Virus genome (UHGV): UHGV-1982450
Origin: a virus
Length of the DNA: 21,444 nt
Strand: one strand, 5' to 3'
Within the stretch, counting starts at the first letter, position 1. Every line of letters starts with the position of its first letter. Below are positions 1 to 16,216 of the stretch, one piece after another. A program made the position numbers and the translations under genes. The notes under the pieces are model-generated. The model was not told the origin of the DNA. It did no database searches and was given only the letters and a program-made list of their open reading frames with translations.

Positions 1-35
1 AAGGCCTTTGAATAAGACAAAAGGCTGCCTCATCG

Positions 36-218: not shown

Positions 219-277
219 TGTACCGAACAAAATCCTTATCTTTACGAAAATCATGGCGCCTCAAGGCGCCATAATGC

Positions 278-556: not shown

Positions 557-558
557 GC

Positions 559-2118: not shown

Positions 2119-2182
2119 AAACCTCTTTCCTTCGTGCCTTTTGTATGGTAATTGGCTATTATGTTAAGTAAGTGCTTACACA

Positions 2183-3251: not shown

Positions 3252-3260
3252 GGATTTGCC

Positions 3261-3527
3261 ATGACGTTGACCGACAAACAAAAAGACATCATCAAAACCA
3301 TCAATTTAGGCCATGAGCGTGGGCATCTGCTCGATCTGGACGAGCTGCTTGAAGTGCTGCCGTACAAAACGACCAAACAGAGTATGCAGTTCTCTATCCG
3401 CGCACTGGTGAAAAAGGGGCTGGTGGAGAAAGGAATGTGCCGCCAGCGCGGTGATTCCGGCTACCACCGTCGCACGCTGGGACTGACCACGTTAGGTCGT
3501 GCCAGAGCCAAATTACTGGTGATGTAA
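3261..3527 (+). CDS. Hypothetical small protein, possible winged-helix DNA-binding protein
   Basis: Shine-Dalgarno AAGGA 6-7 nt upstream of the ATG. Helix-turn-wing pattern LVKKGLVEK; weak. Confidence 0.45.
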   Translation: MTLTDKQKDIIKTINLGHERGHLLDLDELLEVLPYKTTKQSMQFSIRALVKKGLVEKGMCRQRGDSGYHRRTLGLTTLGRARAKLLVM

Positions 3528-3548
3528 GTCGGTCTGGGAGCCAGTTTG

Positions 3549-3611
3549 AGAGCCTGCTTCCGTATATATAAATACTAAGTGACTTATTAAATATATACGG
3601 AAGCAGGCTCT
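3549..3611. repeat. Perfect 21-bp inverted repeat (arms 3549-3569 and 3591-3611) around a 21-nt AT-rich spacer; a degenerate copy lies at 11519-11570
   Basis: AGAGCCTGCTTCCGTATATAT ... ATATATACGGAAGCAGGCTCT read directly. Intergenic, upstream of the terminase small subunit gene. No downstream U-tract. Confidence 0.8.
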
Positions 3612-3641
3612 GAATACTCCCCAGCCCGGTTTTAAACACCC

Positions 3642-3682
3642 AGAAAACAAATTGGTTAGGCACTGAATTAAACAAGTTGTTT
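3642..3682. promoter_or_regulatory. Two adjacent copies of a dyad motif AGAAAACAA(A/G)TTG(T/G)TT (3642-3657 and 3668-3682), 41 bp upstream of terS
   Basis: AAACAA-N-TTGTTT palindrome; the same motif recurs upstream of the parA-like and DnaB-like genes. Confidence 0.4.
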
Positions 3683-3722
3683 AGGAGCGCAAGGATGCGC
3701 TCTGAGTGTTTTAGAGGGATCT

Positions 3723-4364
3723 ATGACTATAGAAAAAGACGAGAGCAAAACTCGCCTGACACCAGCTGAGTGGGCAGAAGCCGAAGCGAAGTGGACTTCC
3801 GGCGAATACACACTCTCCAAGCTGGAGGAAGAGTACGGCATTCGTCGTGAAACGCTCTCCAGACATTTCAAAAAGCGTGGATTAGAGAAAGGCGCGGACT
3901 CCGTTGGGAAGATGGTGCGCGAGTCGCTCAAATCCGACGCAGAGCTGCGTGCGAAGGCGCGTGCAGAGAAAATCGAAGAGCGCCGGACTCGTTACGACGA
4001 TTGGGCGTTCGCACTCGGTCGTATGGTGATGCATGAGGTGGCCATAGCCAAGAAGGACGGCAGGCCACTGGCAGCCATCGAAGATGACCTGAAGAGTCTC
4101 CAGCGTGCCAGCGGCACACTCGCTAAGTGCTTCGAAATATCGTCGAAAGCGCTCGGTATGGATCGCGTGGAGAACGAGGACGACGAAATCCCGAACCTGG
4201 TATTTGGCGAACTTACGCCTTCCCAGGTGGCGCAGCTGCGTAAGGAAGATGATGAGCCGGATCTGATTGATGACGATCTGCTTGAGTCACTCGAAGAGGA
4301 AGCACTGAGCGAAGCTGAGGGCGATTCTGAAGCGTCTGGTGATGAAAGTGATGGGAGCGTCTGA
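3723..4364 (+). CDS. terS: Terminase small subunit (putative)
   Basis: Lies immediately upstream of the terminase large subunit with a 2-nt gap. HTH-like N-terminus, central helical region and strongly acidic C-terminal tail. Shine-Dalgarno GAGGG before the ATG. The call rests mainly on position and architecture. Confidence 0.65.
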   Translation: MTIEKDESKTRLTPAEWAEAEAKWTSGEYTLSKLEEEYGIRRETLSRHFKKRGLEKGADSVGKMVRESLKSDAELRAKARAEKIEERRTRYDDWAFALGRMVMHEVAIAKKDGRPLAAIEDDLKSLQRASGTLAKCFEISSKALGMDRVENEDDEIPNLVFGELTPSQVAQLRKEDDEPDLIDDDLLESLEEEALSEAEGDSEASGDESDGSV

Positions 4365-4366
4365 CT

Positions 4367-5623
4367 ATGGCCATCCCGTCGTCTCTGAGTCTCGTACAGC
4401 TGCATTCTGGGCAGATGCAAGTCTTCCAGTCGCCACATCGTTTCAAAGTGGTGTGTGCGGGTCGACGCTGGGGTAAATCCCGGTTGTCGATCTCCACCAT
4501 CATCCGCGCGGCAGCCAAAGAGAAGAAGCAACGTGTCTGGTATGTCGCACCGACTTACCAGATGGCTCGCCAGATCTTGTGGGATGACCTGCAGGAAGTT
4601 CTGCCGCGCAAATGGGTTCGTAAGAAAAACGACACCACGATGACCATCGTGCTGAAGAACGGCTCTGAAATCGCGCTGAAAGGTGCGGATAAGCCCGATA
4701 CGCTTCGTGGTGTGGCACTGCACTTTGTGGTGCTCGATGAATTTCAGGATATGAAGCCTGACACCTGGTACAAGGTACTGCGTCCGACACTGTCCTCCAC
4801 CCGTGGCGGTGCGCTGATCATCGGTACGCCAAAAGGCTTCTCCGAGTTCCACAAGCTGTGGACTATCGGTCAGAACAAAGATTTGCAACGCAAGGGGCAG
4901 TGGAAGAGCTGGCAGTTCGTTACGGCCGATTCTCCGTTCGTACCGAGCGCGGAAATCGAAGCAGCGAAGAACGATATGGACCCTAAATCGTTCGCACAGG
5001 AATACCTGGCCAGCTTCGAAAACATGTCCGGACGCGTTTACTACCCGTTCGACCGCAATGTGCATGTGAAGCCACTCCAGTTCAATCCGAAACTGCCGAT
5101 CTGGGTTGGTCAGGACTTCAACATCGACCCTATGTCATCGGTCATCCTGCAACCGCAGCCAAATGGTGAACTGTGGGCTGTGGACGAATTGGTGTTGTTC
5201 TCTTCTAACACGGCTGAAGTGTGTGACGAGCTGGAGCGTCGATACTGGCGCTGGAAATCTCAGGTCACTATCTTTCCTGACCCGGCAGGTGCGTATCGCC
5301 AGCACGCACGCGGCGAATCTGACGTCGACATCTTCAAAGAGAAAGGTTTCCTTCGAGTCGATTATCCGAAGAAGCACCCGCCGATCGCAGACCGTGTTAA
5401 CGCAGTGAACCGCATGTTGATGAGTGCCTCGGGCGAAACCCGGTTGTACATCGATCCGAAGTGCAAACACCTCATCGACTCGCTGGAGAAGGTGATCTAC
5501 AAGCCAGGCTCACGCGATATGGATAAGACTGGCGGCATCGAACACAGTGCGGATGCGTTGGGTTATCCGGTTCATCGTAGGTATCCGGTGAAAAATCGTG
5601 TTATTCTTGGTGGATCTAGATAG
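4367..5623 (+). CDS. terL: Terminase large subunit (ATPase plus nuclease)
   Basis: Walker A-like VVCAGRRWGKS, Walker B-like FVVLDEFQD, and a C-terminal nuclease region with the VGQDFNIDPMS acidic motif. Confidence 0.9.
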   Translation: MAIPSSLSLVQLHSGQMQVFQSPHRFKVVCAGRRWGKSRLSISTIIRAAAKEKKQRVWYVAPTYQMARQILWDDLQEVLPRKWVRKKNDTTMTIVLKNGSEIALKGADKPDTLRGVALHFVVLDEFQDMKPDTWYKVLRPTLSSTRGGALIIGTPKGFSEFHKLWTIGQNKDLQRKGQWKSWQFVTADSPFVPSAEIEAAKNDMDPKSFAQEYLASFENMSGRVYYPFDRNVHVKPLQFNPKLPIWVGQDFNIDPMSSVILQPQPNGELWAVDELVLFSSNTAEVCDELERRYWRWKSQVTIFPDPAGAYRQHARGESDVDIFKEKGFLRVDYPKKHPPIADRVNAVNRMLMSASGETRLYIDPKCKHLIDSLEKVIYKPGSRDMDKTGGIEHSADALGYPVHRRYPVKNRVILGGSR

Positions 5624-5638
5624 GTAAGTACTTACCTA
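5621..5638. promoter_or_regulatory. 18-bp perfect palindrome TAGGTAAGTACTTACCTA spanning the terL stop codon, 19 nt before the portal start
   Basis: Read directly. A related sequence TAGATAAGTAAGTACATACCTA occurs at 11654-11675 upstream of the ORF starting at 11689. Confidence 0.4.
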
Positions 5639-5656
5639 AGTGGAAAGGAAAATCAA

Positions 5657-7231
5657 ATGGAATTGACTGACAAGCAAATCAAAGACCTTGTGGCACGACG
5701 CCACCCTGAATATGAGAAGAAAAAAGAACATTGGGACTTCCTCGCCAGCACCTACGCTGGCGGGCGTGCCTGGTTCAACGACAATATCTTCCGTTACTTC
5801 AAAGAGGGCGATCAGGAGTTCAAAGAGCGCCTGGAACGCGCTTATCGCTTCAACCATACGCGCGAAGTGGTAAACCTCATCAACAAATACCTCTTCAAAG
5901 AGGTCATTCACCGCAACACTGATGAAGCACCGGAGCAGATCCGCAATTTCTGGAAGCGAGCCACGCGCCAGAACGCCTCCATCGATGCGTTTATGGCGGC
6001 TATCGATCTGCAATCATCCATTTATGGCCGTATCTGGGTTGTCGTGGATAGCACGATGAACGTCGATGTTGAGTCTGTTGCAGACGAGAAGAAAAATGAT
6101 GCGCGTGCCTACGCTTACTGGATTTCGCCGCAGCAGCTGCTTGATGTTGCCTGGGATGAAGACGGCAATATGTTGTGGGCGCTGATTGTTGAAATCGCGC
6201 GCGACGACGAAGATCCGTTCACTTCAACCGGGCAGGAATACCAGCGTTACCGTCTGTGGACGCAAAACGAGTGGTATCTGTTCCGTGAAGAAGTGAAGAA
6301 GGGTTCCGGAAATAGCGGTCGCCGTCAGGCCAAAGTCGTTCTGGAGGATAGCGGCCAGCATAATCTGGGCGTGGTGCCGGTGTTCCCGGTGGATTGCATT
6401 GGTGAAAGCGAGTCTCCGTATTTTAGCCCGTCGTTGATTGACGATATTGCCTATCTTGATCGCGCCGTGGCCAACTACCTGTCGAACCTTGACGCGATTA
6501 TTCAGGATCAGACATTCAGCCAGTTAGCGATTCCGGTTCAGTCCCTGCTGCCGGGCGATGAAAACCACACCAAAGTGCTCGAAATGGGGACAAAACGTGT
6601 CTTCACCTTCGATTCTGAGAGCGGTAATCAGCCATTCTATCTGTCTCCAGACCCGAAACAGGCTCAGATGATCATCACCACGATTAAGACGGTGATTAAT
6701 GAGATCTACCATTCCGTTGGTGTGGCTGGTGAGCGAACCAAGCAGGATAACGCGCAGGGTATCGACAACTCTTCGGGGGCAGCGAAGATGTACGACTTCC
6801 AACGTATTAACAGTCTGTTGGTGACAAAAGCAGAGCGCCTCGAAAGGGCAGAACGCCAAATGATGGAGTTGGCTGCGAAATGGATGGGCATCGAATTGGA
6901 TGAAGACCACTCTCTGATCGCTTACCCGGAGAGTTTCGATATTCGTGGTCTGACTGACGAATTTGCCGTCGCTGAGAAATTGTCGCTGTTACAGGCGCCT
7001 GATTCTGTACGTCGTCATCAGATGGAAATGCTCATAGAAAAGATCTTCCCGAATATTTCCGAAGCGATGCAAAAGGAATTTAAAAAAGATCTCTTGAAAT
7101 TTCCTCTAAAAAATGCTCCTGGCGCCCTTGAAAATAAGTCAGTACTTACTTATGATTGCGATACAGTCCAAGAAAGCGGACAAGATCAACCCCGAGGGAA
7201 TGGGGACTCATCTACTCAAGAGACCGAGTGA
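5657..7231 (+). CDS. Portal protein (putative)
   Basis: 524-aa protein immediately downstream of terL with a strong Shine-Dalgarno (AAAGGAAAA). Size and acidic C-terminus are typical of portals. Called mainly on synteny. Confidence 0.7.
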   Translation: MELTDKQIKDLVARRHPEYEKKKEHWDFLASTYAGGRAWFNDNIFRYFKEGDQEFKERLERAYRFNHTREVVNLINKYLFKEVIHRNTDEAPEQIRNFWKRATRQNASIDAFMAAIDLQSSIYGRIWVVVDSTMNVDVESVADEKKNDARAYAYWISPQQLLDVAWDEDGNMLWALIVEIARDDEDPFTSTGQEYQRYRLWTQNEWYLFREEVKKGSGNSGRRQAKVVLEDSGQHNLGVVPVFPVDCIGESESPYFSPSLIDDIAYLDRAVANYLSNLDAIIQDQTFSQLAIPVQSLLPGDENHTKVLEMGTKRVFTFDSESGNQPFYLSPDPKQAQMIITTIKTVINEIYHSVGVAGERTKQDNAQGIDNSSGAAKMYDFQRINSLLVTKAERLERAERQMMELAAKWMGIELDEDHSLIAYPESFDIRGLTDEFAVAEKLSLLQAPDSVRRHQMEMLIEKIFPNISEAMQKEFKKDLLKFPLKNAPGALENKSVLTYDCDTVQESGQDQPRGNGDSSTQETE

Positions 7232-7253
7232 TAAGTAACGAAAAGGTATTTCT

Positions 7254-8021
7254 ATGAATCTGTGGCAAATGCTTATGGCCCGTCGTGGCCTGATGGATGT
7301 AGCCGAAGCGCATGAGCGCGGCGGCGCTGGTGGCGGTGCTCCTGCTGGAGACAATGAGCAGAGCATTCAAGACCCAGGCAAACAGGGCGAGCAAAAAGAG
7401 CAACCGAAGGGTGACGACGATGAGTATGCCGGTATGACTCAGGAAGAGTTGCTGGCAGAACTGCGTAAGTCTAAGAAAGCCGGTGCTGATCTGTTGAAAG
7501 AGAACATGAAGCGCAAGGAGAAAGAGCGCACATTGGCCGATCAGCTGGCTCAGTACGGTGATATTGACCCGACGCGTGCTCGTCAGCTTCTCGAAGCTGA
7601 ACAAGCCGCAGAAACCGCACGTCGGGAGGCGGAGCAGGCTGAACTGGAACGTCGTGGTGAGTTCGATGCTGTGAAAAAGCAGATGATCGAAGCACACCAG
7701 ACTGAACTGGCACAGCGCGACGAACGCTACTCCGCTCTGGAGAGCGAGAACGCCGCACTGAAGGCTCAACTGGTCGAAATGACTGTTGGTGTTTCCTTCA
7801 GCAGTTCTGCTTTCCTGCGTGACAAAGTTCTGATGACTCCGGCTATTGGCCTTGCACAAATTGCTGACGTTATGCCTCAAGTTTCTGCCGCAATGGATAA
7901 AGCGCAAGGCAATATCTCCAGTGGAGATACGGTACGCATCATCTTTGGCGTAGCTACCATTCTTGTGGCAGCATTCATTGCCTGGTCCCAGGTTCGCAAG
8001 CACCAGAAAGGATTAGTGTAA
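7254..8021 (+). CDS. Coiled-coil protein with a C-terminal transmembrane anchor (possibly scaffold- or lysis-related; function unknown)
   Basis: Long charged heptad-rich helical region (EAEQAAETARREAEQAELERR) and a C-terminal hydrophobic helix IIFGVATILVAAFIAW. Confidence 0.5.
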   Translation: MNLWQMLMARRGLMDVAEAHERGGAGGGAPAGDNEQSIQDPGKQGEQKEQPKGDDDEYAGMTQEELLAELRKSKKAGADLLKENMKRKEKERTLADQLAQYGDIDPTRARQLLEAEQAAETARREAEQAELERRGEFDAVKKQMIEAHQTELAQRDERYSALESENAALKAQLVEMTVGVSFSSSAFLRDKVLMTPAIGLAQIADVMPQVSAAMDKAQGNISSGDTVRIIFGVATILVAAFIAWSQVRKHQKGLV

Positions 8022-8023
8022 GT

Positions 8024-8275
8024 ATGTTCGACGGCCTGTTGTTCAAAATGAAATCCGCTTTGTTCACTCTGGCCGCCGTCATTCTAGTCCTTGTCGGCGC
8101 ATACTCCTATGGCGGGTATATGGCCAGACGCAGTATGGAAGAGAAAGAACGGCGGGAAGATAACAAGCGTCTTCAAAGCACAGTGGAAGTGGTGAATGAG
8201 ACGAACAGTGAAATACGTCAGAAAGATGCTTCTGCCATTCATCGTGAGCTGCATGATAAGTGGGTGCGTAATTAA
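8024..8275 (+). CDS. Putative i-spanin-like protein (Rz-like: N-terminal TM helix plus short periplasmic coiled coil)
   Basis: N-terminal TM helix ALFTLAAVILVLVGAY followed by a charged helical segment. Its 3' end overlaps a lipoprotein ORF in another frame. Confidence 0.4.
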   Translation: MFDGLLFKMKSALFTLAAVILVLVGAYSYGGYMARRSMEEKERREDNKRLQSTVEVVNETNSEIRQKDASAIHRELHDKWVRN

Positions 8276-8411
8276 GCCACAGACCACCAGCGTGTTGTTC
8301 TGCGATGGCGCTGAACCTATTTATATCAGCAATGACGATGTAATGACCGAAGAAACCGAACGCCAAATCCTTTTTCACAATACGATGGGAGAGAGAGTTT
8401 GCGGTTGGTGA
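8196..8411 (+). CDS. Putative o-spanin-like outer-membrane lipoprotein (Rz1-like), overlapping the preceding gene out of frame
   Basis: Signal peptide MRRTVKYVRKMLLPFIVSCMISGC with lipobox ISGC. The short mature domain carries extra cysteines. An alternative start lies at 8226. Confidence 0.4.
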   Translation: MRRTVKYVRKMLLPFIVSCMISGCVIKPQTTSVLFCDGAEPIYISNDDVMTEETERQILFHNTMGERVCGW

Positions 8412-8443: not shown

Positions 8444-8965
8444 TTATTCTTCGAACAATTTTTCGATAGATTTTGTTGGATAGAACAAAGAACGATCGTT
8501 GTTACCAACCAGCTGGATAAAGCCCAAACTTTTATAAAACGCCCTGGCTTTATCGTTCAACGCCTCAACGAAAAGCCCATGAATGCCTACCGCAAGAGAT
8601 GCATTGTACACAACACGCATTGCGTGAGTTACAAGCATTGAGCCAAGCCCCTGACCTTGAAGAGATTTGTCCAAAGCCAGTCTGCCTAAAGTGATACTTG
8701 GGACATGCCGATAAGGCACTTTCTTTTGCTGACTCTTTGAAGGTAAGGTTTCTTTCTCAAAGCAGCTGCCTGACAAAGTGTAATAACCTAATACCTTTGG
8801 TATTTCTTCTTTAGTGCAAAGCACATAAGCGCGAAGAATTTTTCCTTCATGCTGTCTTTTTAAGTGGTTGGTCAAAAATGCGTTTAGCGACTCTTCGCCG
8901 CAATCAAAACCGTTTAGATCATAATCTTTCTCTCCAGAGAAAATCTCGATCGTCGTATTGCTCAC
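8444..8965 (-). CDS. GNAT-family acetyltransferase toxin of the TacT/AtaT/KacT type (aminoacyl-tRNA acetylating toxin family)
   Basis: Family-typical motifs FDCG, LGRLALDKSLQGQGLG and YKSLGF. Lies immediately downstream of, and co-oriented with, a DUF1778-type antitoxin gene. Confidence 0.9.
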   Translation of the reverse strand: MSNTTIEIFSGEKDYDLNGFDCGEESLNAFLTNHLKRQHEGKILRAYVLCTKEEIPKVLGYYTLSGSCFEKETLPSKSQQKKVPYRHVPSITLGRLALDKSLQGQGLGSMLVTHAMRVVYNASLAVGIHGLFVEALNDKARAFYKSLGFIQLVGNNDRSLFYPTKSIEKLFEE

Positions 8966-8972
8966 GAGTAAA

Positions 8973-9242
8973 TTACTCCATGCTTTTCAGACGATTGGCA
9001 GCTCGTTTCAGCTTGTCGTTCGGTGCCGGAGGATTGCTTATAGCATCCATAACCAGATTCCAGGACTCTTCACTTAGAACCAGTCTACGGTGTTGCTCTA
9101 TCACCTTCACGGCACGTTCGGATGCACTGCTAACCATGAACTGGGTAATGCTCTGGTTAGACATTGCGGCAGCTTCCTCGATGATGCTTTTATCGTCATC
9201 GGTTAATCTCAAATCGATGCGCTGCTTTTTCAGTGCGGACAT
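8973..9242 (-). CDS. DUF1778-family antitoxin (TacA-like RHH antitoxin)
   Basis: 89-aa protein whose N-terminal RHH region (RIDLRLTDDDKSIIEEAAAMSNQSITQFMV) and C-terminal toxin-binding helix match the DUF1778 pattern. Separated by 7 nt from the GNAT toxin gene. Confidence 0.85.
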   Translation of the reverse strand: MSALKKQRIDLRLTDDDKSIIEEAAAMSNQSITQFMVSSASERAVKVIEQHRRLVLSEESWNLVMDAISNPPAPNDKLKRAANRLKSME

Positions 9243-9510
9243 GTGTACCCCCTGATGGCCGGTGATGTAGGAAGGCCATCATTGCTCTCTATTTAAACTG
9301 AGTTTTCGACTCAAAGGTTATTTAACTGGGCTATAGCCCATTGCGTATGTGTCATCAAATTGTGTACGGCAATTTACCGTACTCGTAATATAGAGGTGAT
9401 TGTCACTTTTTTCAACAGACAAATGAAAACAGTTACTAGCAATAGGCAATAACAACCTACTAAATAACCTTTACACCGCAGCCGTAGGCATTTAGGCTAT
9501 ATCGCATATA

Positions 9511-9526
9511 AGAAAACAAGTTGTTT
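9511..9526. promoter_or_regulatory. Dyad motif AGAAAACAAGTTGTTT, 36 bp upstream of the parA-like start
   Basis: Same AAACAA-N-TTGTTT palindrome as at 3668-3682 and 12440-12455. Confidence 0.4.
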
Positions 9527-9561
9527 CATACGACAATAATTCACGCAAAGGAAACTCACCA

Positions 9562-10227
9562 ATGACCAAGATCATTGTGGTTGGCGGCACAAAAGGCGGC
9601 CCAGGCAAATCTACCGTTGCCCAGCAAATTGCGGTATGTCTCAAAGTTAAAAAGAAAAAGAAGGTTCACGTCACCGATATCGATATCCAGCGCACCACGA
9701 CCAGCTGGTGTGAAGACCGTCGCCAGAACGAAGATCTTGAACTGATCCCGTTCGCTTATGTGCAGGACGACATCGTCAAACATCTTAAATCGCTTCAGGG
9801 GCGAACTGATTATGTAGTGGTAGATGCTGGTGGCTTTGACTCCGAAATTCAGCGTCTGGCGATGCTTATGGCTGATGTAATCATCATCCCGCTGCGCCCT
9901 AAACGTCGTGATTTGAAATCTCTGCGTGATATCGACCCGATTATCGACAACGTTCGCAATGTGAACGAGAAAGTTAAGATCCGCGCGGTAATAAACCAGT
10001 GTCCGTCATTGCCTTCCCAGGTATCACGTATTCTGGCCGCGAAGGAAATTGTCGAAACTTTCGGCATCGAGGCTGCGCCGGTTAACCTGTACAACCGTAA
10101 CGTTTATGACGATGCGGAAGAGGCAGGTCGTTCTATCTTTGAAATGACTGGCGCTGAACGCGATAAGAAGGCAGAAGCCGAGTTCGAAGAGTTTGTAGAT
10201 TACATCTTGAGTCTGGAGGAAGAATAA
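9562..10227 (+). CDS. parA: ParA/ParF-type partition ATPase (small deviant Walker-A ATPase)
   Basis: Deviant Walker A GGTKGGPGKST at the N-terminus, size of about 221 aa typical of type Ib ParA/ParF, and a coupled downstream small RHH gene. Confidence 0.9.
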   Translation: MTKIIVVGGTKGGPGKSTVAQQIAVCLKVKKKKKVHVTDIDIQRTTTSWCEDRRQNEDLELIPFAYVQDDIVKHLKSLQGRTDYVVVDAGGFDSEIQRLAMLMADVIIIPLRPKRRDLKSLRDIDPIIDNVRNVNEKVKIRAVINQCPSLPSQVSRILAAKEIVETFGIEAAPVNLYNRNVYDDAEEAGRSIFEMTGAERDKKAEAEFEEFVDYILSLEEE

Positions 10228-10586
10228 TGTCCATGAGAATGGGAGACCTTGCAAAGCGCAATGAGCCTAAAGAACCGGCCAAAAGCAGCACTCCACTGCG
10301 CCAGCCAGTCAGACCGCAGGGGCGTCCGACTCGTGGCAAAGAGAAAATTAAAAGTCGCACAATGTCACTGGAAGACGAATACTTCGAACTGCTGGAGATG
10401 ATGAAGTTCATCCCTCGTTTCGAGAAGTTCACCCGTTCTGACGTGATTCGCGCTGCTATTTTCCATCTGGCAGAGAAGTCACCGCAGGAAATCGAGGACA
10501 TCGTGAAACTTAACGAGGCGATCACAGCTGCCGATGTCACGATGCGTACCGATGAAATCAAACGAGAGTTGATGAAGAAAGGTTAA
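10227..10586 (+). CDS. ParG-like centromere-binding protein (basic disordered N-tail plus C-terminal RHH)
   Basis: Start overlaps the parA stop (TAATG). Basic N-terminal tail and C-terminal RHH pattern SLEDEYFELLEMM ... RSDVIRAAIFHL. Confidence 0.6.
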   Translation: MSMRMGDLAKRNEPKEPAKSSTPLRQPVRPQGRPTRGKEKIKSRTMSLEDEYFELLEMMKFIPRFEKFTRSDVIRAAIFHLAEKSPQEIEDIVKLNEAITAADVTMRTDEIKRELMKKG

Positions 10587-10590
10587 AAAT

Positions 10591-10623
10591 TATGCATTGG
10601 CGCAATGTACGCGCCAATGCATA
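10591..10623. terminator. Bidirectional terminator candidate: 13-bp perfect stem (TATGCATTGGCGC / GCGCCAATGCATA) with a 7-nt loop, between convergent genes
   Basis: Read directly. An A/T tract (AAAAATT) flanks it on the left, which gives a U-tract for the minus-strand transcript. Confidence 0.5.
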
Positions 10624-10638
10624 AGTACAGTGTCAGCT

Positions 10639-11406
10639 TTATGCCGCGCTAACACTATGTTCATTCCTAACCACCCCAACCTTCACAAAAGGGCTGCCGT
10701 AGCTTGGTGGCTTCTTGATTAATTTGCCTACATACAGTTTTCTAATATGCTCATCGGCTATTCTGCCAACAAATTCATAACGTTTTGTGTCGGGGCCAAG
10801 AGCTATATCCCTTGTAAAGTACTGCTGAGAACCGGCTTTGACCCAGCATTCAATCTGATAAACTTCCATTATCAGGCCCCCATATGTAGCGTAGGCATAT
10901 TTGAGATTCTCGTCTCTTGGAACCTTTGCCCATACGCCACGCGTAGCTTCATATAATGCCAGAGCGGACATTCCTGACTTGTAGGTGCTGTTTAGCAGGA
11001 AGGCAAGACCGGCGTGCTCAGGAGCAATTTCAGTTTCCTCTTGCAGCACTAAGTGATGGTAGGCGTCCAGTGATATTCTGCCCATCATGGAACCACTTCC
11101 TCGTACCTTATTCGTAAGCTCTCCGACCCCCATAAGGTCGATGCATGTCGCCTCAACAAGTTTGGCTGTGGTTTCATCCATACCATGACGAAGAATATCT
11201 ATGCCTAATTTTTTATTAGCCAAAAGTTCTTTGATCCGCATGGATTTGGGAGAGTCATCGGGATACTTGATGTGATCGAGACAACGAGTCGATTTGCCTT
11301 TTCCTATGTAAAACGGTCTTTTCATCTTGTCTTCTGTATCATAGAGACAGTAAACATAGTATTTAGCCTTATCCAATGATCTCGCGTATACCGATAAATC
11401 GTCCAT
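10639..11406 (-). CDS. GIY-YIG nuclease domain protein with an uncharacterised C-terminal domain of about 150 aa
   Basis: N-terminal GIY-YIG motif YYVYCLYD ... PFYIGKGKSTRCLDH. The C-terminal half has no motif I recognise. Confidence 0.7.
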   Translation of the reverse strand: MDDLSVYARSLDKAKYYVYCLYDTEDKMKRPFYIGKGKSTRCLDHIKYPDDSPKSMRIKELLANKKLGIDILRHGMDETTAKLVEATCIDLMGVGELTNKVRGSGSMMGRISLDAYHHLVLQEETEIAPEHAGLAFLLNSTYKSGMSALALYEATRGVWAKVPRDENLKYAYATYGGLIMEVYQIECWVKAGSQQYFTRDIALGPDTKRYEFVGRIADEHIRKLYVGKLIKKPPSYGSPFVKVGVVRNEHSVSAA

Positions 11407-11518
11407 TATTGCATCTCTTAGCTACTGACTAATGCGTTCTATTTTACACATAAGTTTTTAATCAATTTTACAGGCTCAAAGTGTAGAGCTTCTGGGTGTC
11501 TAAGACGACAAGTTATGC

Positions 11519-11583
11519 CTGTTTCTGTATATAAATAATAAGTAACTTATTAAATATATACGGAAGCAGGTCTTTTAAAAGAC
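11519..11583. repeat. Degenerate copy of the 3549-3611 inverted repeat (shared core TATATAAATA-TAAGT-ACTTATTAAATATATACGGAAGCAGG) immediately followed by a 14-bp perfect palindrome GTCTTTTAAAAGAC (11570-11583)
   Basis: Read directly. Intergenic, between the divergent GIY-YIG gene and the ORF starting at 11689. Confidence 0.7.
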
Positions 11584-11688
11584 ACCCACCAGAACAACTC
11601 CCTTCCGTTTCCACTTCCCAAAAATATCTCCAGTCGCTATGATTCGCTCACTTAGATAAGTAAGTACATACCTATTAAAGGGAATCAT

Positions 11689-12414
11689 GTGAGCCAGATC
11701 TTCTTCAACACTATCGACAATGACCAGTACGATTTCATGACAGAGTGGAACACCGCAGTCATGGATAAGTGGGTAGCGGAGAACATTGGCCTGTCACGTT
11801 GCAAGGACGAGGCGGAACTGTTCGAAACCAAATGGTTTGACTATCGCGATATGCACCCGCTCATGGCCACATGCCTTTTCACTGAGGCATACAAGCGCCA
11901 GTACTCATACATCATGCTGTCGCATGGTCGTGAACACTATGAGACGGCTCCATTCACAACCGGTCTGAAGCGTGTGCCATATCAGGAGTTGTCGACTGCC
12001 AATAAAACGTCTCTATGGAAAGCACGCCAGTTTGCTGACCGCTATTGCTGCTCATACGACTACTTTATCTCCACCGTTCTTTCCGCAGCTGCACGACGGC
12101 TGTGGGACAAATTACCGCGCCCCCAGCATCTCTGGCAGCCCGAGTTGATCGATATATTCGAAGAGAAGTTAGCCAAACGCGCTGTAACCCGTCTGGATGA
12201 CTCTCTGGTGAGTTTTAAGCATCTTGGAGACATGCAGCGTGACCCGATTCAGGAACGCTATTTTGAGTGGATTCTGGAGCGTCTGCGTGGCATTACCCGA
12301 GATAAACGCATCCGTATCATCTTCTCCGCTGTCTGGTTGATGGAAATCGTGCCTGAGCGTGTGATTTACGCGCACTTCCCGGAAGAACTGGAAGAAGCAC
12401 GGCGATTCTGTTGA
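11689..12414 (+). CDS. Hypothetical protein (241 aa, GTG start)
   Basis: Long ORF with Shine-Dalgarno AAAGGG 7 nt upstream of the GTG. No recognisable motifs. Confidence 0.55.
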   Translation: MSQIFFNTIDNDQYDFMTEWNTAVMDKWVAENIGLSRCKDEAELFETKWFDYRDMHPLMATCLFTEAYKRQYSYIMLSHGREHYETAPFTTGLKRVPYQELSTANKTSLWKARQFADRYCCSYDYFISTVLSAAARRLWDKLPRPQHLWQPELIDIFEEKLAKRAVTRLDDSLVSFKHLGDMQRDPIQERYFEWILERLRGITRDKRIRIIFSAVWLMEIVPERVIYAHFPEELEEARRFC

Positions 12415-12439
12415 TCCCCTATCTGGCTTTTTTAGTATT

Positions 12440-12455
12440 AGAAAACAAATTGTTT
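12440..12455. promoter_or_regulatory. Dyad motif AGAAAACAAATTGTTT, 20 bp upstream of the DnaB-like helicase start
   Basis: Same palindrome family as at 3642-3682 and 9511-9526. Confidence 0.4.
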
Positions 12456-12474
12456 AAGCACCAAAGGAAAGCAC

Positions 12475-13815
12475 ATGACCGAACTTTGCCACACAGGACG
12501 AGGGTTGTCTGAAGAGTTCGACGACGACTTCCAGAATAGACTCGCTGCCTACTTCTGTCGCGACCATGAGTTTCTGACTCGCGCAGGCGATCTGGTTGCC
12601 CCAAACCAGTTCTCTAATGCGGCTAACTCCATTCTGGTTAACATGGTGTCGGGCTACTACAGAATGTATAAGAGCGCACCATCATCATCAGCCATCCTCG
12701 ACATGCTCAAACGCGCCAAACGCGATAAGACGATCCGCGAAGAGCTGTTCCCTGACGTTGTTGAGGCGTTTAAGCGCATTCTCGCTGAGAAGCTGTCAGA
12801 TACGGCGTACATGGTCGACCAGGTCGCGACATTTGCTAAAAGCGTAGCGTTCGACGATGCGCTAATTAAAGCGGCTGAGATGAAAGAGAAGGGCGATTTC
12901 CAGGGCGCGATGGCAATCATGGCTAAGGTCCAGCAAATTGGCTCTAACGAAGCGACCGGCATTTACGATTACTTCGCAGAATCAGCGGAGCGTTACAAGG
13001 CCCGTGAGTACGAAGCGTCCGACGATTACGTGCCAAACAGCATCACTACCGGCCTCCCGCTGCTCGACAAACTGCTTTACCAGAAAGGCTGGGCAAAGCG
13101 TGAAATGGTGCTGTTTATGGGCTTCGCTAAGTCTGGTAAATCGACGGCGATGGGGGAGTTTTCCATCAACGCCACGCTTGCCGGTTACAACGTCCTGTAT
13201 CTGTCGCTGGAAGTTCACACCTCCATTCTGTCAGATCGCTTTGACGCCCGTCTGTCTGAGACCGAAATGTCCAGGCTGGTGGAACGTCGCGATGACGTCC
13301 ATCGCAAACTGGCGGAGCTGGGTGCGACGAAAGGCGTGGGAAGTTTGTGGATTGTTGAACGACCGTCCGGAAGCATGTCGCCCGCAGATCTGGATCGTAT
13401 GTTGGGCAGCATGAAAGCCAACGGCATGGTCCCCGATATGGTTGTGGTCGACTACGCTGACCTGATGCGTGCCAGCTACGACCTCCGCGACGACCGCGCT
13501 AACATTCGCAGCATCTACACTGACCTGCGTGCGCTGTACGACAAACACAACGTTGCCGGCATCACGGCATCGCAGACTAACAGAGAAGGTGGCGCTTCTG
13601 AGGTGGCTACAATGATGCACGCAGCGGACAACATCGAGAAGGTGCGTATCGCTGACCTCGTTATCACTATCAACAAAACGGAAGAAGAAGAAGCGAAAGG
13701 CGAAGCGCGTCTTTACTTCGCTGGTTCACGTAACCAGAAAGGCGGCGTAAGCATCCGCGTTAAGCAGAACCTCGAACAAATGCGATTCATCGAACGCATT
13801 ATGGACGTCCTCTAA
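12475..13815 (+). CDS. DnaB-like replicative helicase (RecA-fold C-terminal domain)
   Basis: Walker A GFAKSGKST followed by the DnaB-family pattern LYLSLEV ... VVVDYADLM ... ITASQTNREG. Shine-Dalgarno AAGGA before the ATG. Confidence 0.85.
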   Translation: MTELCHTGRGLSEEFDDDFQNRLAAYFCRDHEFLTRAGDLVAPNQFSNAANSILVNMVSGYYRMYKSAPSSSAILDMLKRAKRDKTIREELFPDVVEAFKRILAEKLSDTAYMVDQVATFAKSVAFDDALIKAAEMKEKGDFQGAMAIMAKVQQIGSNEATGIYDYFAESAERYKAREYEASDDYVPNSITTGLPLLDKLLYQKGWAKREMVLFMGFAKSGKSTAMGEFSINATLAGYNVLYLSLEVHTSILSDRFDARLSETEMSRLVERRDDVHRKLAELGATKGVGSLWIVERPSGSMSPADLDRMLGSMKANGMVPDMVVVDYADLMRASYDLRDDRANIRSIYTDLRALYDKHNVAGITASQTNREGGASEVATMMHAADNIEKVRIADLVITINKTEEEEAKGEARLYFAGSRNQKGGVSIRVKQNLEQMRFIERIMDVL

Positions 13816-13875
13816 AAAAGAAGGCGTGGGGAAACACTCTCCACGCCTGTCTCCAGAAGAGAACAAATTTCTCTT

Positions 13876-15087
13876 TTGCCAAAACCACAAAAGAAAAAAC
13901 ACATGAGCCTTTATGGTATTCAAATACCGAGGCTTATCAAGATATTACCTGCAAAAAATAGGGGTAAGAACGTGAGCGACTTGAAAGAATTACTGACCGA
14001 GCTGGATTTTGAGCAATGGCTCGATATGGAAGGGATCATCTACCGTCGTGGTGGAGTCAGTACTCGCGGACGAGAGGTCAACATTAAAGAGTGTCCGGTA
14101 TGCGGCAGCTCAAACTGGAAGGTTTATTTCAACCTGACCAGTGGTGTCGGCAAATGCTTTGCAGGCGATCATCCCGAAGAGATTCAGTTCAACAAGCTGG
14201 TCTTCCTAAAGCATTACAGCGGCAAATCTCGTCGCGATTTTGAAGAGTACGTCCAGAACGCGCTGATCTCACAAGGATGGGCACCGAAGAAGGAAGAGAT
14301 CGTACTGGCCAGCAAGGTTGAACTGGAAGGACCGGTAGCTCTCCCGCGCCATTACGAACTCCCCATTGACGGTCGTCTTCCTGATTATCTGGTGGAGCGC
14401 CAGATTTCCCCGGAGCTGGCCAAATACTTTGATCTGCGTTACTGCGTCGAAGGCAAGCACGCATACGTCGATCCGTACACAGACCAGGTCAAAGGACAGG
14501 TATTCGATATGCGAATACTGATACCGGTTTACGATCTGGATGGCGTGATGAAGACCTTCCAGGGTCGTGACATTACCGGTGCAGCAGAACGCCGGTATCT
14601 GTTCCCCATGCAGCTGCCAGCATCGGGTAAATTTCTCTACAACGGCCACAATGCAGTCGGCAAACAGACTGTAGTTGTCTGTGAGGGGGCGTTCGATGTT
14701 ATGGGGGTTAAACGAGCTATTTTTGATGAAGAAACATTACGCGATTACGTGGAACCGATAGGAACGTTCGGGATGCATCTATCTGGTAACACCACTCAGG
14801 ATGCAGAAGATCAGTTGGGCGCGTTCCTGACGCTCAAGGCGCGTGGATTACGTAATGTGATTATGATGTGGGATAGTGAAAAGCAAGCTATACGCAACAC
14901 GATGGCCGCAGCCAGGCGACTGACTAGTATCGGTCTTAATGTCAAAGTAGCGTGTTTGGGCGAGGAAGGACTCGACCCCGGCGATGCGACACCGGGGCAG
15001 ATTATCAAAGCCTACTATTGCGCAAAACCTTATTCACGACAGCTTGAACTTTTAAGCAAGGTAAAAGGCATAGCTGCATTAGTTTGA
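13876..15087 (+). CDS. DNA primase (zinc-ribbon plus TOPRIM); the true start is probably downstream of 13876
   Basis: Zinc-ribbon CPVCGSS ... KCFAGDH resembling the T7 gp4-type primase zinc-binding domain, and a TOPRIM-like acidic motif VVVCEGAFDVMG. Alternative starts at 13903 (ATG) or 13972 (GTG with a GGGG Shine-Dalgarno). Confidence 0.8.
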   Translation: MPKPQKKKHMSLYGIQIPRLIKILPAKNRGKNVSDLKELLTELDFEQWLDMEGIIYRRGGVSTRGREVNIKECPVCGSSNWKVYFNLTSGVGKCFAGDHPEEIQFNKLVFLKHYSGKSRRDFEEYVQNALISQGWAPKKEEIVLASKVELEGPVALPRHYELPIDGRLPDYLVERQISPELAKYFDLRYCVEGKHAYVDPYTDQVKGQVFDMRILIPVYDLDGVMKTFQGRDITGAAERRYLFPMQLPASGKFLYNGHNAVGKQTVVVCEGAFDVMGVKRAIFDEETLRDYVEPIGTFGMHLSGNTTQDAEDQLGAFLTLKARGLRNVIMMWDSEKQAIRNTMAAARRLTSIGLNVKVACLGEEGLDPGDATPGQIIKAYYCAKPYSRQLELLSKVKGIAALV

Positions 15088-15229: not shown

Positions 15230-16216
15230 TTGTCGTTCTTTGGGGGAGAAGTGAACATTGTAGATGCTCTTGTTCTCAAGAAGTTAATGAGCGTTGGTGA
15301 TGAAACTGTTCTGTCAATCTTAAAGTTTTCAGCGTACAGCGGAGTGTCAACACTCGAAGAACTGGTAGTTAACTCCTCCAATCTGAAAATCTCAAATGGT
15401 AAATCTCGAGCAACTCTCGAAAGTTTCTTCGACGCTGCGAACTTCCAGGCTCTCAGGGACGAAGTAAAAACAGAGATTGATTCGTTCAAAAATAAAGGAG
15501 TTGAGATTGTTATCTTCGGTTCGAAAAACTATCCAATTTCGTTATATGATCTCCCGAAACCTCCACCCTTTCTTTACTGTAAAGGCAATCTAAATCTCTT
15601 AGAGAATAGGCTTTCATTAGCTGTTGTAGGAACTCGTGAAAACACCCCCAAGGGTGAAACCCTAACGATTAAAACTATTCAAAAGTTTGCGACTTATGGC
15701 TTCACGATAGTCAGTGGACTTGCACTGGGTATCGATACAATTGCTCATCGCGCGGCATTAGATGCCAAAACACCAACGATTTCTGTTCTTGTCGATGTGG
15801 AGTCTATTTCTCCCGCAAGTAATCGGGAACTCGCTAAGGAAATATTGGACGAGGGCGGACTTCTAGTTGCAGAGAATGCACCAGGAACCAAAGCAATACC
15901 TGCGTTCTTTGCTAAGCGAGACAGGATACAAGCAGGTTTATCTACTGCCGTCTTTGCTATTGAAACTTCGATAGATGGTGGGACGATGCACGCAGTCAAA
16001 TCTGCTATCTCTATGATGCGTCCTGTCTTCGTTCCTGACGTACATAAAGCTAAGTATCCAGATCTTACTATCAAGGCAATTTCAGGAACTCAACAGCTAG
16101 TTAACGAAGGGAGGGCGATACCATACACGAGCGAATCTTATGAAGATATTCGTCTTCAATTAGAAGATATCGCGAGTTCATTTGGGTCGTTGAAAGCAAA
16201 AGGTGGCCTGCTGTGA
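15230..16216 (+). CDS. DprA/Smf-like (SLOG-type Rossmann) protein; candidate antitoxin or partner of the downstream PRTase fusion protein
   Basis: DprA signature LAVVGTR ... GFTIVSGLALGIDTIAHRAAL ... FAKRDRIQAGLSTAVFAIETSIDGGTMHA. Its stop overlaps the start of the next gene (GTGA). Start may be TTG at 15230 or GTG at 15251 (GGGGGAG Shine-Dalgarno). Confidence 0.85.
   Translation: MSFFGGEVNIVDALVLKKLMSVGDETVLSILKFSAYSGVSTLEELVVNSSNLKISNGKSRATLESFFDAANFQALRDEVKTEIDSFKNKGVEIVIFGSKNYPISLYDLPKPPPFLYCKGNLNLLENRLSLAVVGTRENTPKGETLTIKTIQKFATYGFTIVSGLALGIDTIAHRAALDAKTPTISVLVDVESISPASNRELAKEILDEGGLLVAENAPGTKAIPAFFAKRDRIQAGLSTAVFAIETSIDGGTMHAVKSAISMMRPVFVPDVHKAKYPDLTIKAISGTQQLVNEGRAIPYTSESYEDIRLQLEDIASSFGSLKAKGGLL

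What the first reader, a model, noticed from the sequence alone, without database searches (positions are those of the whole stretch)
9562..10586. ParF/ParG-like partition cassette next to phage packaging and replication genes suggests a phage-plasmid lifestyle
A small deviant Walker-A ATPase plus a coupled RHH protein is a plasmid segregation module. Together with terminase, portal, DnaB-like helicase and primase, and with no integrase in the window, this favours an extrachromosomally maintained prophage (phage-plasmid). The ParA-like protein has an unusual lysine run (KVKKKKKV, encoded by an A-rich tract at about 9648-9665).
Basis: inference. Interest (0 to 1): 0.4.

Follow-up and report, generated by a model that had tools for sequence, protein, structure and literature searches.

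The report
SSU5-type phage-plasmid partition cassette
This is the ordinary plasmid-segregation gene pair (a small ParA ATPase plus a small DNA-binding adaptor) of the well-known SSU5 family of phage-plasmids, but the copy in this window sits in a decayed remnant that has lost its virus-particle genes and now lives only as part of a resistance plasmid.

Summary
ORF 9562-10227 encodes a 221-aa ParA with an intact deviant Walker A; its best solved relative is ParF of TP228. ORF 10227-10586 overlaps it (TAATG) and encodes a 119-aa protein with a disordered basic tail and a probable ribbon-helix-helix core.

The cassette is the known ParA locus of SSU5-type phage-plasmids (93.8% identical to SSU5 genes 033/034). 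In 5,426 complete E. coli genomes it occurs 265 times, always on plasmids.

Three corrections:
1. The small protein is not a ParG-family member: profile comparison gives 0.1% probability. It belongs to a tiny unannotated family that always follows this ParA.
2. No repeat-array centromere lies nearby. Instead a ~70-bp non-coding block upstream is almost invariant, and it contains a 13-bp palindrome that recurs 14 times across SSU5.
3. This copy is not in a working phage-plasmid. About 24 kb of capsid, tail and lysis genes are deleted, the ParB-N genes are truncated, and an IS26 end bounds the segment. Identical sequence lies in multi-replicon resistance plasmids.

The lysine run is lineage-specific and maintained at the protein level.

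Verdict: a new member of a known kind, of low to moderate interest.

The parts
9562..10227 (+). parA: small (221 aa) deviant-Walker-A partition ATPase, type Ib, ParF-like
   Evidence: ORF. Pfam AAA_31, MipZ, CbiA and ParA. NCBIfam ParA_partition 118 bits, full length but below the 180-bit cut-off. Best PDB match ParF 4dzz, E 5e-12. Catalytic residues invariant in relatives.
9649..9663 (+). Codons for K30-K34, the lysine run, in the loop between the Walker-A helix and strand 2
   Evidence: Aligns with ParF 'RSGYN'. Relatives have KKKKK, KKKKT, KKTKS, KAGKK or RGHN. Lys codons differ synonymously between relatives, so selection acts on the protein and not on an A-tract.
10227..10586 (+). Gene for the 119-aa partner protein, the candidate centromere-binding adaptor; alternative start at 10233 is used by RefSeq
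   Evidence: Translationally coupled to parA (TAATG). PHROG 5111, function unknown. Always directly downstream of a 221-229-aa ParA, down to 27-39% identity. Only 18 representatives among 1.8 billion proteins.
10239..10259 (+). Conserved N-terminal motif MGDLAKR, the candidate ParA-contacting and ATPase-stimulating peptide (inferred)
   Evidence: M5-K10 invariant in close relatives. The pattern [MFL]-G/A-[GD]-L-x-K is kept in distant ones. It lies in a segment with pLDDT below 50.
10347..10478 (+). Probable ribbon-helix-helix core, residues 41-84: IKSRTMSLE strand, helix 48-60, helix 70-84
   Evidence: Helices predicted at 48-60 and 70-84. aCcr1 hits in 9 of 13 members. RHH_1 at 20.8 and 17.1 bits for cores of two family members. 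Invariant R44, S47, E49, R70, D72, R75.
9463..9533 (+). Near-invariant non-coding block: candidate promoter (TTTACA 9470-9475, 17 nt, TAGGCT 9493-9498), operator and possibly the centromere
   Evidence: Alignment A2. Positions -100 to -30 are 96-97% identical to Klebsiella relatives, where parA third codon positions are 53-55% identical and -30 to -1 is 70%. Contains the palindrome GCCGTAGGC at 9481-9489. No Rfam match.
9514..9526 (.). 13-bp palindrome AAACAAGTTGTTT, one copy of a phage-wide motif
   Evidence: Six matches in the window against 0.97 expected. Fourteen exact copies in SSU5 against 0.13 expected. At least 8 copies sit in the same frame: -10, about 13 nt, palindrome, Shine-Dalgarno, ATG.
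10590..10624 (-). Perfect 14-bp-arm hairpin between the convergent cassette and the GIY-YIG-like gene; terminator-like, with the T-run on the minus strand
   Evidence: Absent from SSU5, whose homology ends at 10584.
8444..9242 (-). Adjacent maintenance module, divergent from parA: GNAT toxin (8444-8965) and TacA/DUF1778 antitoxin (8973-9242)
   Evidence: Pfam Acetyltransf_1 and TacA1, E 3.5e-26. Same arrangement in phage Cyrano, absent in SSU5.
7844..7845 (.). Junction of the ~24-kb deletion of the virion and lysis module, inside the in-frame fusion ORF 7254-8021
   Evidence: Window 3590-7845 matches SSU5 1-4255, and window 7844-8393 matches SSU5 28407-28955. The fusion ORF hits a scaffold-type PHROG at its N-terminus and an endolysin PHROG at its C-terminus.

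Best explanation
The cassette is the type Ib active-partition module of the SSU5-type phage-plasmid backbone.

Proposed mechanism (inferred from the family):
- ParA-ATP dimers coat the nucleoid.
- The 119-aa protein dimerises through a ribbon-helix-helix core and binds the plasmid. The binding site is probably in the near-invariant 70-bp block just upstream, which overlaps the operon's promoter, so the protein would also autoregulate.
- Its disordered basic N-terminal tail, with the conserved MGDLAKR motif, contacts ParA and stimulates ATP hydrolysis.
- The resulting ParA gradient spaces plasmid copies apart, so each daughter cell inherits one.

Shown here: gene pair, motifs, homology, coupling, synteny, exclusively plasmid location, constrained upstream block.

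Inferred: DNA-binding site, ATPase stimulation, autoregulation, actual stabilisation.

In this window the module survives in a virion-less, IS26-bounded remnant inside composite resistance plasmids. There it serves, at most, plasmid maintenance only.
For: ParA:
- Full-length match to ParF and to NCBIfam ParA_partition.
- Intact, family-invariant Walker A, A' and B residues.
- No N-terminal DNA-binding domain at 221 aa, which makes it type Ib.

Partner protein:
- Stop/start overlap with parA.
- Strict ParA-then-partner adjacency in five independent lineages, down to 27-39% identity, all in SSU5-like contexts.
- Disordered tail followed by helices where an RHH should be.
- RHH_1 and aCcr1 hits in family members.

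Location and context:
- 265 of 265 E. coli places are on plasmids and none on chromosomes.
- 736 PLSDB plasmids carry it, 702 of them non-mobilizable.
- SSU5 has no other ParA annotated in the 100 kb examined.
- The cassette is retained together with RepA and DnaB/primase in a remnant that lost all structural genes. That fits a plasmid-maintenance role.
- The upstream block is under much stronger constraint than synonymous sites.
Against: - No iterated or tandem repeat array, the usual type Ib centromere, was found up- or downstream.
- No motif shared by all five lineages stood out above shuffles.
- The window protein itself has no Pfam RHH hit.
- Foldseek on the monomer models found nothing.
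- ParA scores below the curated NCBIfam cut-off.
- No experimental study of this cassette turned up in the literature searches.
- In the matching plasmid p1585m1_B a complete SopAB system is also present, so the cassette may be redundant there.
Confidence: 0.75

Rival explanations
1. The 119-aa RHH protein is mainly a phage-wide regulator and/or uses dispersed centromeres. It would bind the 13-bp palindrome AAACAAGTTGTTT found at the parA promoter and at at least 13 other SSU5 promoters. Partition and gene control would then be coupled, as with omega of pSM19035, KorB of RK2 or SopB of N15.
For: - No local repeat array exists.
- The palindrome lies just after the -10 of the par promoter and of the packaging and dnaB-primase operons.
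- SSU5 has 14 copies against 0.13 expected, in a common promoter frame.
- The palindrome is kept at the parA and dnaB promoters in a lineage whose partner protein is only 31% identical.
- AAACAA half-sites are enriched upstream of parA in all five lineages: 8 observed against roughly 1 expected. This count is post hoc.
- A 13-bp pseudo-symmetric site fits what I recall of RHH operators such as CopG (from memory).
Against: - Three of the five lineages (L012, L015, L016) lack the palindrome at the parA promoter, although the predicted DNA-reading strand S-R-T-x-S is conserved.
- pMT1 lacks the cassette entirely yet keeps four palindromes at homologous promoters.
- A classical prophage repressor or the ParB-N proteins are equally good candidate binders.
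Confidence: 0.12
2. In this particular element the cassette is a vestigial passenger. The composite plasmid is segregated by its F-type SopAB system and held by multiple toxin-antitoxin modules, and the SSU5 cassette contributes nothing.
For: - p1585m1_B carries sopA/sopB with an IncFIA RepB, IncFII remnants, and VapBC, PemIK, HigB, YafO and GNAT/TacA modules.
- The SSU5 backbone is heavily eroded.
Against: - Both ORFs, the promoter block and all catalytic residues are intact and 100% identical across at least five plasmids.
- The SSU5-type RepA replicon is retained with them.
- Another full match, pXJW9B263-1, is typed IncFIB only.
Confidence: 0.2
3. The true centromere-binding partner of this ParA is one of the ParB-N-domain proteins encoded next to the terminase genes (the SSU5 'parB' marker). 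The 119-aa protein would then be only a transcriptional regulator.
For: - A ParB_N protein is encoded at 2183-2611, and it hits PHROG 723 'ParB-like partition protein'.
- SSU5_125 is annotated as ParB-like, and parB is used as an SSU5 typing marker.
Against: - These genes lie about 34 kb from parA in SSU5.
- pMT1 keeps both ParB-N genes yet lacks this ParA and uses a separately annotated ParA/ParB pair: a 401-aa AAA ATPase plus a ParB family protein.
- In the window one ParB-N gene is truncated at residue 133 and the other is deleted, while the cassette is intact.
- The 119-aa gene, not a ParB-N gene, is the one that is always coupled to parA.
Confidence: 0.05
4. The 119-aa protein is a RelE/ParE-type toxin, as annotated in phage Cyrano.
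For: The annotation 'RelE/ParE putative toxin' for the homologue CYRAN_29.
Against: - No RelE/ParE hit in Pfam, NCBIfam or PHROGs.
- The only toxin-antitoxin-type hit is a single ParD antitoxin match at E 0.12 in one member.
- The predicted structure is a disordered tail plus four helices.
- The gene is coupled to a ParA ATPase and not to an antitoxin.
Confidence: 0.01

Closest known systems
SSU5_033 / SSU5_034 of Salmonella phage SSU5, and the same locus in pHCM2-, pSLy3- and pKpn-type phage-plasmids
   Same: Orthologous locus. It is 93.8% nucleotide identity over window 9465-10584, with the same order (promoter block, parA, small gene) and the same position between the lysis genes and the dnaB-primase operon.
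   Different: In SSU5 the small gene is annotated shorter and as hypothetical. SSU5 lacks the GNAT/TacA module upstream and the GIY-YIG-like gene downstream. SSU5 is a complete phage, whereas the window's element has lost the virion module.
ParF-ParG-parH of Salmonella Newport plasmid TP228 (type Ib partition)
   Same: A small Walker-type ATPase aligns full length with ParF. It is followed by a small protein with a flexible N-terminal tail and a C-terminal RHH-type fold. The likely regulatory and centromere region is upstream.
   Different: The 119-aa family shows no profile similarity to ParG, PF09274 (hhalign probability 0.1%). It is 43 residues longer, with two extra C-terminal helices. No array of short repeats like parH was found. 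ParA is below the NCBIfam ParA_partition cut-off.
Delta/omega of pSM19035, IncC/KorB of RK2 and SopAB of N15 (partition adaptors that double as global regulators with dispersed sites; from established knowledge)
   Same: A possible analogy only: a short palindrome at the par promoter recurs at many other promoters of the element.
   Different: Nothing shows that the 119-aa protein binds these sites, and the lineage comparison argues against it.
P1/P7-family ParAB of pMT1 (type Ia)
   Same: It serves partition in a sister branch of the SSU5 supergroup.
   Different: Unrelated architecture: a 401-aa ParA and a ParB family protein. pMT1 has no homologue of the window cassette.

Membership tests
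Type Ib (ParF-like) partition ATPase | Deviant Walker A KGGxxGK[ST] with signature lysine, plus Walker A' and Walker B aspartates | tested here: met
   K11-G-G-P-G-K16-S17-T18, D39/D41 and D88 are present and invariant in relatives down to 41% identity.
Type Ib (ParF-like) partition ATPase | Small size (about 200-230 aa) with no N-terminal DNA-binding domain, and homology to ParF over the full length | tested here: met
   221 aa. Residues 3-200 align with ParF 2-190, E 5e-12, the best PDB match.
Type Ib (ParF-like) partition ATPase | Passes the curated NCBIfam equivalog model ParA_partition (NF041546) | tested here: not met
   118.1 bits over model positions 1-202 of 203, against a cut-off of 180 bits. 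It is a divergent relative, not an equivalog.
Type Ib (ParF-like) partition ATPase | ATP-dependent dimerisation, nucleoid binding, and partner-stimulated ATPase activity | not testable with these tools
   Needs biochemistry.
ParG (Pfam PF09274) | Sequence or profile homology to ParG | tested here: not met
   hhalign of the 13-member family profile against a 19-member ParG profile gives probability 0.1% and E 0.5. No PF09274 hit, even at E up to 10.
Ribbon-helix-helix centromere-binding proteins (type Ib/II adaptors in general) | RHH (strand-helix-helix) DNA-binding core | tested here: inconclusive
   For: the core of family member P0027 scores 20.8 bits on RHH_1 (cut-off 20.5) and P0035 scores 17.1 bits; aCcr1 hits in 9 of 13 members; helices at 48-60 and 70-84. 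Against: the window protein itself has no hit, and Foldseek on the monomer models gave nothing. A dimer model could not be run.
Ribbon-helix-helix centromere-binding proteins (type Ib/II adaptors in general) | Flexible N-terminal tail preceding the fold | tested here: met
   Residues 1-47 have no secondary structure, and pLDDT is below 50 for 1-25. The linker is variable, flanked by the conserved MGDLAKR motif and a basic tract.
Ribbon-helix-helix centromere-binding proteins (type Ib/II adaptors in general) | Encoded immediately downstream of, and co-expressed with, the ParA gene | tested here: met
   TAATG overlap. The same adjacency occurs in SSU5, pJN2-26, Cyrano and PhiR41_1, and in four of four distant lineages.
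Ribbon-helix-helix centromere-binding proteins (type Ib/II adaptors in general) | Adjacent centromere made of iterated short repeats | tested here: not met
   No tandem or direct-repeat array in 8900-11700 or in the upstream regions of five lineages. There is only an invariant 70-bp block with two short palindromes.
SSU5-supergroup phage-plasmid | Backbone homology and synteny with SSU5 | tested here: met
   Window 55-2366, 3590-7845, 7844-8393, 9465-10584 and 11518-15062 match SSU5 at 75-97% identity, in order.
SSU5-supergroup phage-plasmid | Extrachromosomal maintenance | tested here: met
   All 265 places in 264 complete E. coli genomes are on plasmids. The exact matches are circular plasmids.
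SSU5-supergroup phage-plasmid | Complete virion, packaging and lysis gene set, meaning it is able to form phage particles | tested here: not met
   SSU5 4256-28406 is absent from the window and from the whole of p1585m1_B, with 0 bases matched.

The most novel reading that the evidence does not exclude
The orphan 119-aa RHH protein is both the partition adaptor and a phage-wide regulator. It would bind the 13-bp palindrome AAACAAGTTGTTT that sits just downstream of the -10 box at the par promoter and at a dozen or more other SSU5 promoters, including those of the packaging and dnaB-primase operons. The palindromes would then act as dispersed centromeres and operators, tying segregation of the plasmid prophage to control of its gene expression. 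That would be an omega/KorB/N15-SopB-like logic in a new protein family.
Probability: 0.1. Interest if true: 0.6.

Novelty: new member of a known kind. Interest (0 to 1): 0.25.

Why it matters
SSU5-type phage-plasmids are common. This cassette is in about 5% of complete E. coli genomes and in 736 PLSDB plasmids from Klebsiella, Escherichia, Enterobacter, Salmonella and other genera. The literature links the SSU5 group to multidrug-resistant lineages of S. Typhi and Shigella sonnei, and the plasmids matching this window carry resistance genes, including a carbapenemase.

How these elements are segregated has not, as far as I could find, been studied.

Three results bear on that question:
- The partner protein is an unannotated RHH-type family.
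- There is no obvious centromere array.
- A strongly constrained 70-bp block is a concrete candidate for the centromere.

Together these define a simple stabilisation and incompatibility experiment.

The window also gives a clean example of a phage-plasmid decaying into a pure plasmid. It has kept its replication and partition genes while losing its virion genes, and it has fused with IncF and resistance modules.

Tried and rejected
- **Structure search for the partner.** Foldseek of two AlphaFold monomer models (pLDDT 65 and 67) against PDB and BFVD gave no hit with E below 1. An RHH only folds as an intertwined dimer, so this result is uninformative.
- **Sequence searches for the partner.** phmmer and profile searches against PDB sequences gave only noise.
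- **ParG membership.** I rebuilt ParG from a TP228-type parF locus and compared profiles. There was no relationship.
- **Centromere search.** Direct and inverted repeats, TRF, and per-lineage repeat scans found no array.
- **Shared motif.** An exhaustive search for 6-8-mers shared among five divergent upstream regions gave nothing convincingly above shuffles.
- **GCCGTAGGC palindrome.** It is not enriched in the window: 3 matches against 2.7 expected.
- **RNA element in the leader.** No Rfam match.
- **A-tract slippage reading of the lysine run.** Rejected. The longest A run is 5, and Lys codons vary synonymously between relatives.
- **Toxin annotation from phage Cyrano.** Rejected.
- **Literature.** No paper holds the palindrome sequence. 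No experimental work on this cassette was found. Gilcrease and Casjens 2018 is not held in the library.
Full report
**1. What is there**

Two co-directional ORFs occupy exactly the stated interval. The first, 9562-10227, encodes 221 aa and begins MTKIIVVGGTKGGPGKST. The second, 10227-10586, encodes 119 aa. Its ATG shares a base with the TAA of the first (TAATG).

The first protein hits Pfam AAA_31, MipZ, CbiA and ParA and PHROG 164 'ParA-like partition protein' at E 9e-53. It also hits NCBIfam ParA_partition over the whole model, at 118 bits, which is below the 180-bit equivalog cut-off.

Among all solved structures its best match is ParF of TP228 (4dzz/5u1g, E 5e-12), aligned over residues 3-200. 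The signature lysine K11, P-loop K16/S17, D39/D41 and Walker B D88 are invariant in relatives down to 41% identity. It is therefore a small, apparently active, type Ib ParA.

**2. The partner protein**

The 119-aa protein has no Pfam family and belongs to PHROG 5111, function unknown. A profile search of 1.8 billion representative proteins found only 18 relatives, so the family is small and lineage-restricted.

Its conservation pattern is informative:
- an N-terminal motif MGDLAKR
- a variable linker
- an invariant basic tract (PVRPQGRPTRGK..IKSRTMS.EDE)
- FTRSDVIRAAI

AlphaFold models (pLDDT 65 and 67) give a disordered stretch at residues 1-47 and helices at 48-60, 70-84, 86-98 and 101-118. 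This is the layout expected for a ribbon-helix-helix protein whose strand only forms in the dimer, with two extra C-terminal helices.

Direct support for the fold is marginal but consistent:
- Nine of 13 family members give weak hits to the aCcr1 model, which I recall from memory to be an RHH family.
- The isolated core of member P0027 reaches Pfam RHH_1 at 20.8 bits, against a cut-off of 20.5.
- The core of P0035 reaches 17.1 bits.

Foldseek on the monomer models found nothing, and a dimer model could not be run.

I tested ParG membership explicitly. I recovered ParG from a TP228-type parF locus, built a 19-member ParG profile and compared it with the family profile. The result was probability 0.1%. 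'ParG-like' is therefore correct for architecture and probable fold, but wrong for family membership.

**3. Are the two genes a functional pair?**

Yes, by conserved synteny. In SSU5, pJN2-26, Cyrano and PhiR41_1 the small gene directly follows parA. The same holds in four more distant lineages, whose partner is only 27-39% identical (L012, L013/14, L015, L016). There it sits 0-10 nt away from, or overlaps, a 221-229-aa ParA. Three of the four are in an SSU5-like setting, with a tail-fibre gene upstream and, in L013/L014, dnaB downstream.

**4. Context and identity of the element**

The cassette is 93.8% identical to SSU5 genes 033 and 034 and 81-89% identical to E. coli and Klebsiella SSU5-type phage-plasmids. 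SSU5, pHCM2, pSLy3, pKpn and pMT1 form the best-known phage-plasmid supergroup after P1.

The cassette occurs in 736 PLSDB plasmids, 702 of them non-mobilizable. It also occurs in 264 of 5,426 complete E. coli genomes, at 265 places, all on plasmids and none on a chromosome. The 'phage-plasmid family' inference is right, and it is already known.

**5. This copy is not in a functional phage-plasmid**

Several results show that the element has decayed:
- Window 3590-7845 equals SSU5 1-4255, and window 7844-8393 equals SSU5 28407-28955. That means 24,151 bp are missing: major capsid, connector, tail, tape measure, tail fibres, Cor, holin and three quarters of endolysin.
- The deletion leaves an in-frame fusion ORF at 7254-8021, with a scaffold-type N-terminus and an endolysin C-terminus.
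- A second deletion of about 2 kb truncates one ParB-N gene at residue 133 and removes the other.
- Window 1-54 is an IS26 end.
- The window is 100% identical to three composite plasmids.

One of those plasmids, p1585m1_B (113 kb), is typed IncFIA/IncFIB. It carries sopAB, IncFII remnants, several toxin-antitoxin modules and a class 1 integron with blaIMP-4. It retains only about 30 kb of SSU5 backbone and none of the structural region.

What survives includes RepA, DnaB/primase and this cassette. That is what one would expect if the cassette serves plasmid maintenance.

**6. The centromere question**

Type Ib systems normally have an array of short repeats next to the operon. None is present here.

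Instead, the roughly 70 bp from 9463 to 9533 are almost invariant. Positions -100 to -30 are 96-97% identical to Klebsiella relatives. In the same comparison, parA third codon positions are 53-55% identical and the last 30 nt before the ATG are 70% identical.

The block contains:
- a plausible promoter, TTTACA-17 nt-TAGGCT, which also appears in the distant L012
- the palindrome GCCGTAGGC
- the 13-bp palindrome AAACAAGTTGTTT

This block is my best candidate for a combined operator and centromere, but that is inference.

**7. The 13-bp palindrome**

The palindrome is not specific to the par operon. The window has three exact copies (AAACA-N3-TGTTT): upstream of the packaging operon, upstream of parA and upstream of dnaB. 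With near-matches that makes 6, against 0.97 expected.

SSU5 has 14 exact copies against 0.13 expected. At least eight of them share one frame: -35, 16-17 nt, GATAAT, about 13 nt, palindrome, Shine-Dalgarno, ATG. The motif therefore looks like the operator of a phage-wide regulator.

Could the 119-aa protein be that regulator, as omega, KorB or N15 SopB are in their elements?

For:
- There is no local repeat array.
- The site persists at parA and dnaB in L013.
- AAACAA half-sites are enriched upstream of parA in all five lineages, although this count is post hoc.

Against:
- L012, L015 and L016 lack the palindrome at the par promoter despite a conserved predicted DNA-reading strand.
- pMT1 lacks the cassette but keeps four palindromes.

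I rate this reading at about 10%. No paper in the library holds the sequence.

**8. The lysine run**

K30-K34 lie in the loop between the Walker-A helix and strand 2, where ParF has RSGYN. More distant relatives have RGHN, KAGKK, KKTKS or KKKKT at this position. The run is therefore a stepwise, lineage-specific enrichment of an already basic surface loop.

Lys codons differ synonymously between relatives, and no A run exceeds 5. Selection acts on the protein, and slippage is unlikely. A contribution to non-specific DNA binding is possible but untested.

**9. Rivals considered**

- **ParB-N proteins as the real partner: unlikely.** They are distant from parA, they are retained in pMT1 without this ParA, and they are disrupted here while the cassette is intact.
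- **Toxin annotation from Cyrano: rejected**.
- **Vestigial passenger in a SopAB-bearing composite plasmid: possible for this copy.** However, all parts are intact and identical in several plasmids.

**10. Verdict**

The cassette is a type Ib partition module of the known SSU5 phage-plasmid backbone. Its adaptor belongs to an unannotated, probably RHH family that is not ParG, and its centromere has not been identified. In this window it lies in a virion-less remnant inside resistance plasmids.

Novelty: a new member of a known kind. Interest: 0.25.

Noticed in passing
window 3670-3682, 9514-9526, 12443-12455 (near-copy at 3645-3657); SSU5 loci L006/L011: The 13-bp palindrome AAACAAGTTGTTT recurs upstream of the packaging, par and dnaB-primase operons. 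SSU5 has 14 exact copies against 0.13 expected. Most follow a GATAAT -10 box by about 13 nt and precede a Shine-Dalgarno sequence and ATG. It looks like the operator of an unidentified phage-wide regulator, and no paper in the library contains the sequence.
   Followed up: partly
window 7844-7845 (fusion ORF 7254-8021): A deletion of 24,151 bp relative to SSU5 (SSU5 4256-28406) removes capsid, tail, tail-fibre and holin genes and most of endolysin. It leaves an in-frame scaffold-endolysin fusion ORF. The element is a virion-less remnant of a phage-plasmid.
   Followed up: yes
window about 2567-2575 (ORF 2183-2611): A second deletion of about 2 kb relative to pMT1 truncates one ParB-N-domain gene at residue 133. 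It also removes the second ParB-N gene and an ABC-ATPase-like gene.
   Followed up: partly
window 1-54: The window starts inside the terminal inverted repeat end of IS26 (...TTTGCAACAGTGCC). The SSU5-type backbone begins at position 55, so the segment is IS26-bounded, as in the matching resistance plasmids.
   Followed up: partly
window 8444-9242 (- strand): A GNAT acetyltransferase toxin and a TacA/DUF1778 antitoxin pair is transcribed divergently from parA. It is present in phage Cyrano but absent from SSU5. With the par cassette it forms a small maintenance island.
   Followed up: partly
window 10590-11406: The slot after the cassette is variable. Here it holds a 255-aa LEM-3-like GIY-YIG protein on the minus strand (PHROG 5356, function unknown), ended by a perfect 14-bp-arm hairpin terminator. 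SSU5 has three unrelated genes in this position.
   Followed up: no
window 16213-20889: A single 1,558-aa ORF combines HAD hydrolase, DUF559/PvuRts1I-like endonuclease and DEAD/Helicase_C domains. In p1585m1_B it is interrupted by IS1. A DprA homologue (15230-16216) lies just upstream.
   Followed up: no
L008 (phage Cyrano) 2431-2790: The Cyrano homologue of the 119-aa protein is annotated 'RelE/ParE putative toxin'. No family search supports this, so it is probably a misannotation.
   Followed up: partly
L016 about 1500-1560: In one distant lineage, sequence resembling a tRNA 3' end (GGTTCGAGTCCCGCTGCCTGCTCCA) lies about 200 nt upstream of parA.
   Followed up: no
L004 7557-8660; L020 39462-40565: The complete plasmids that match the window carry a site-specific integrase next to a YafO toxin, about 6 kb beyond the window's right end, inside the SSU5-type backbone. 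pMT1 also has an annotated site-specific integrase next to its porphyrin-biosynthesis gene. SSU5 has a tRNA-Asn gene at that position instead.
   Followed up: no
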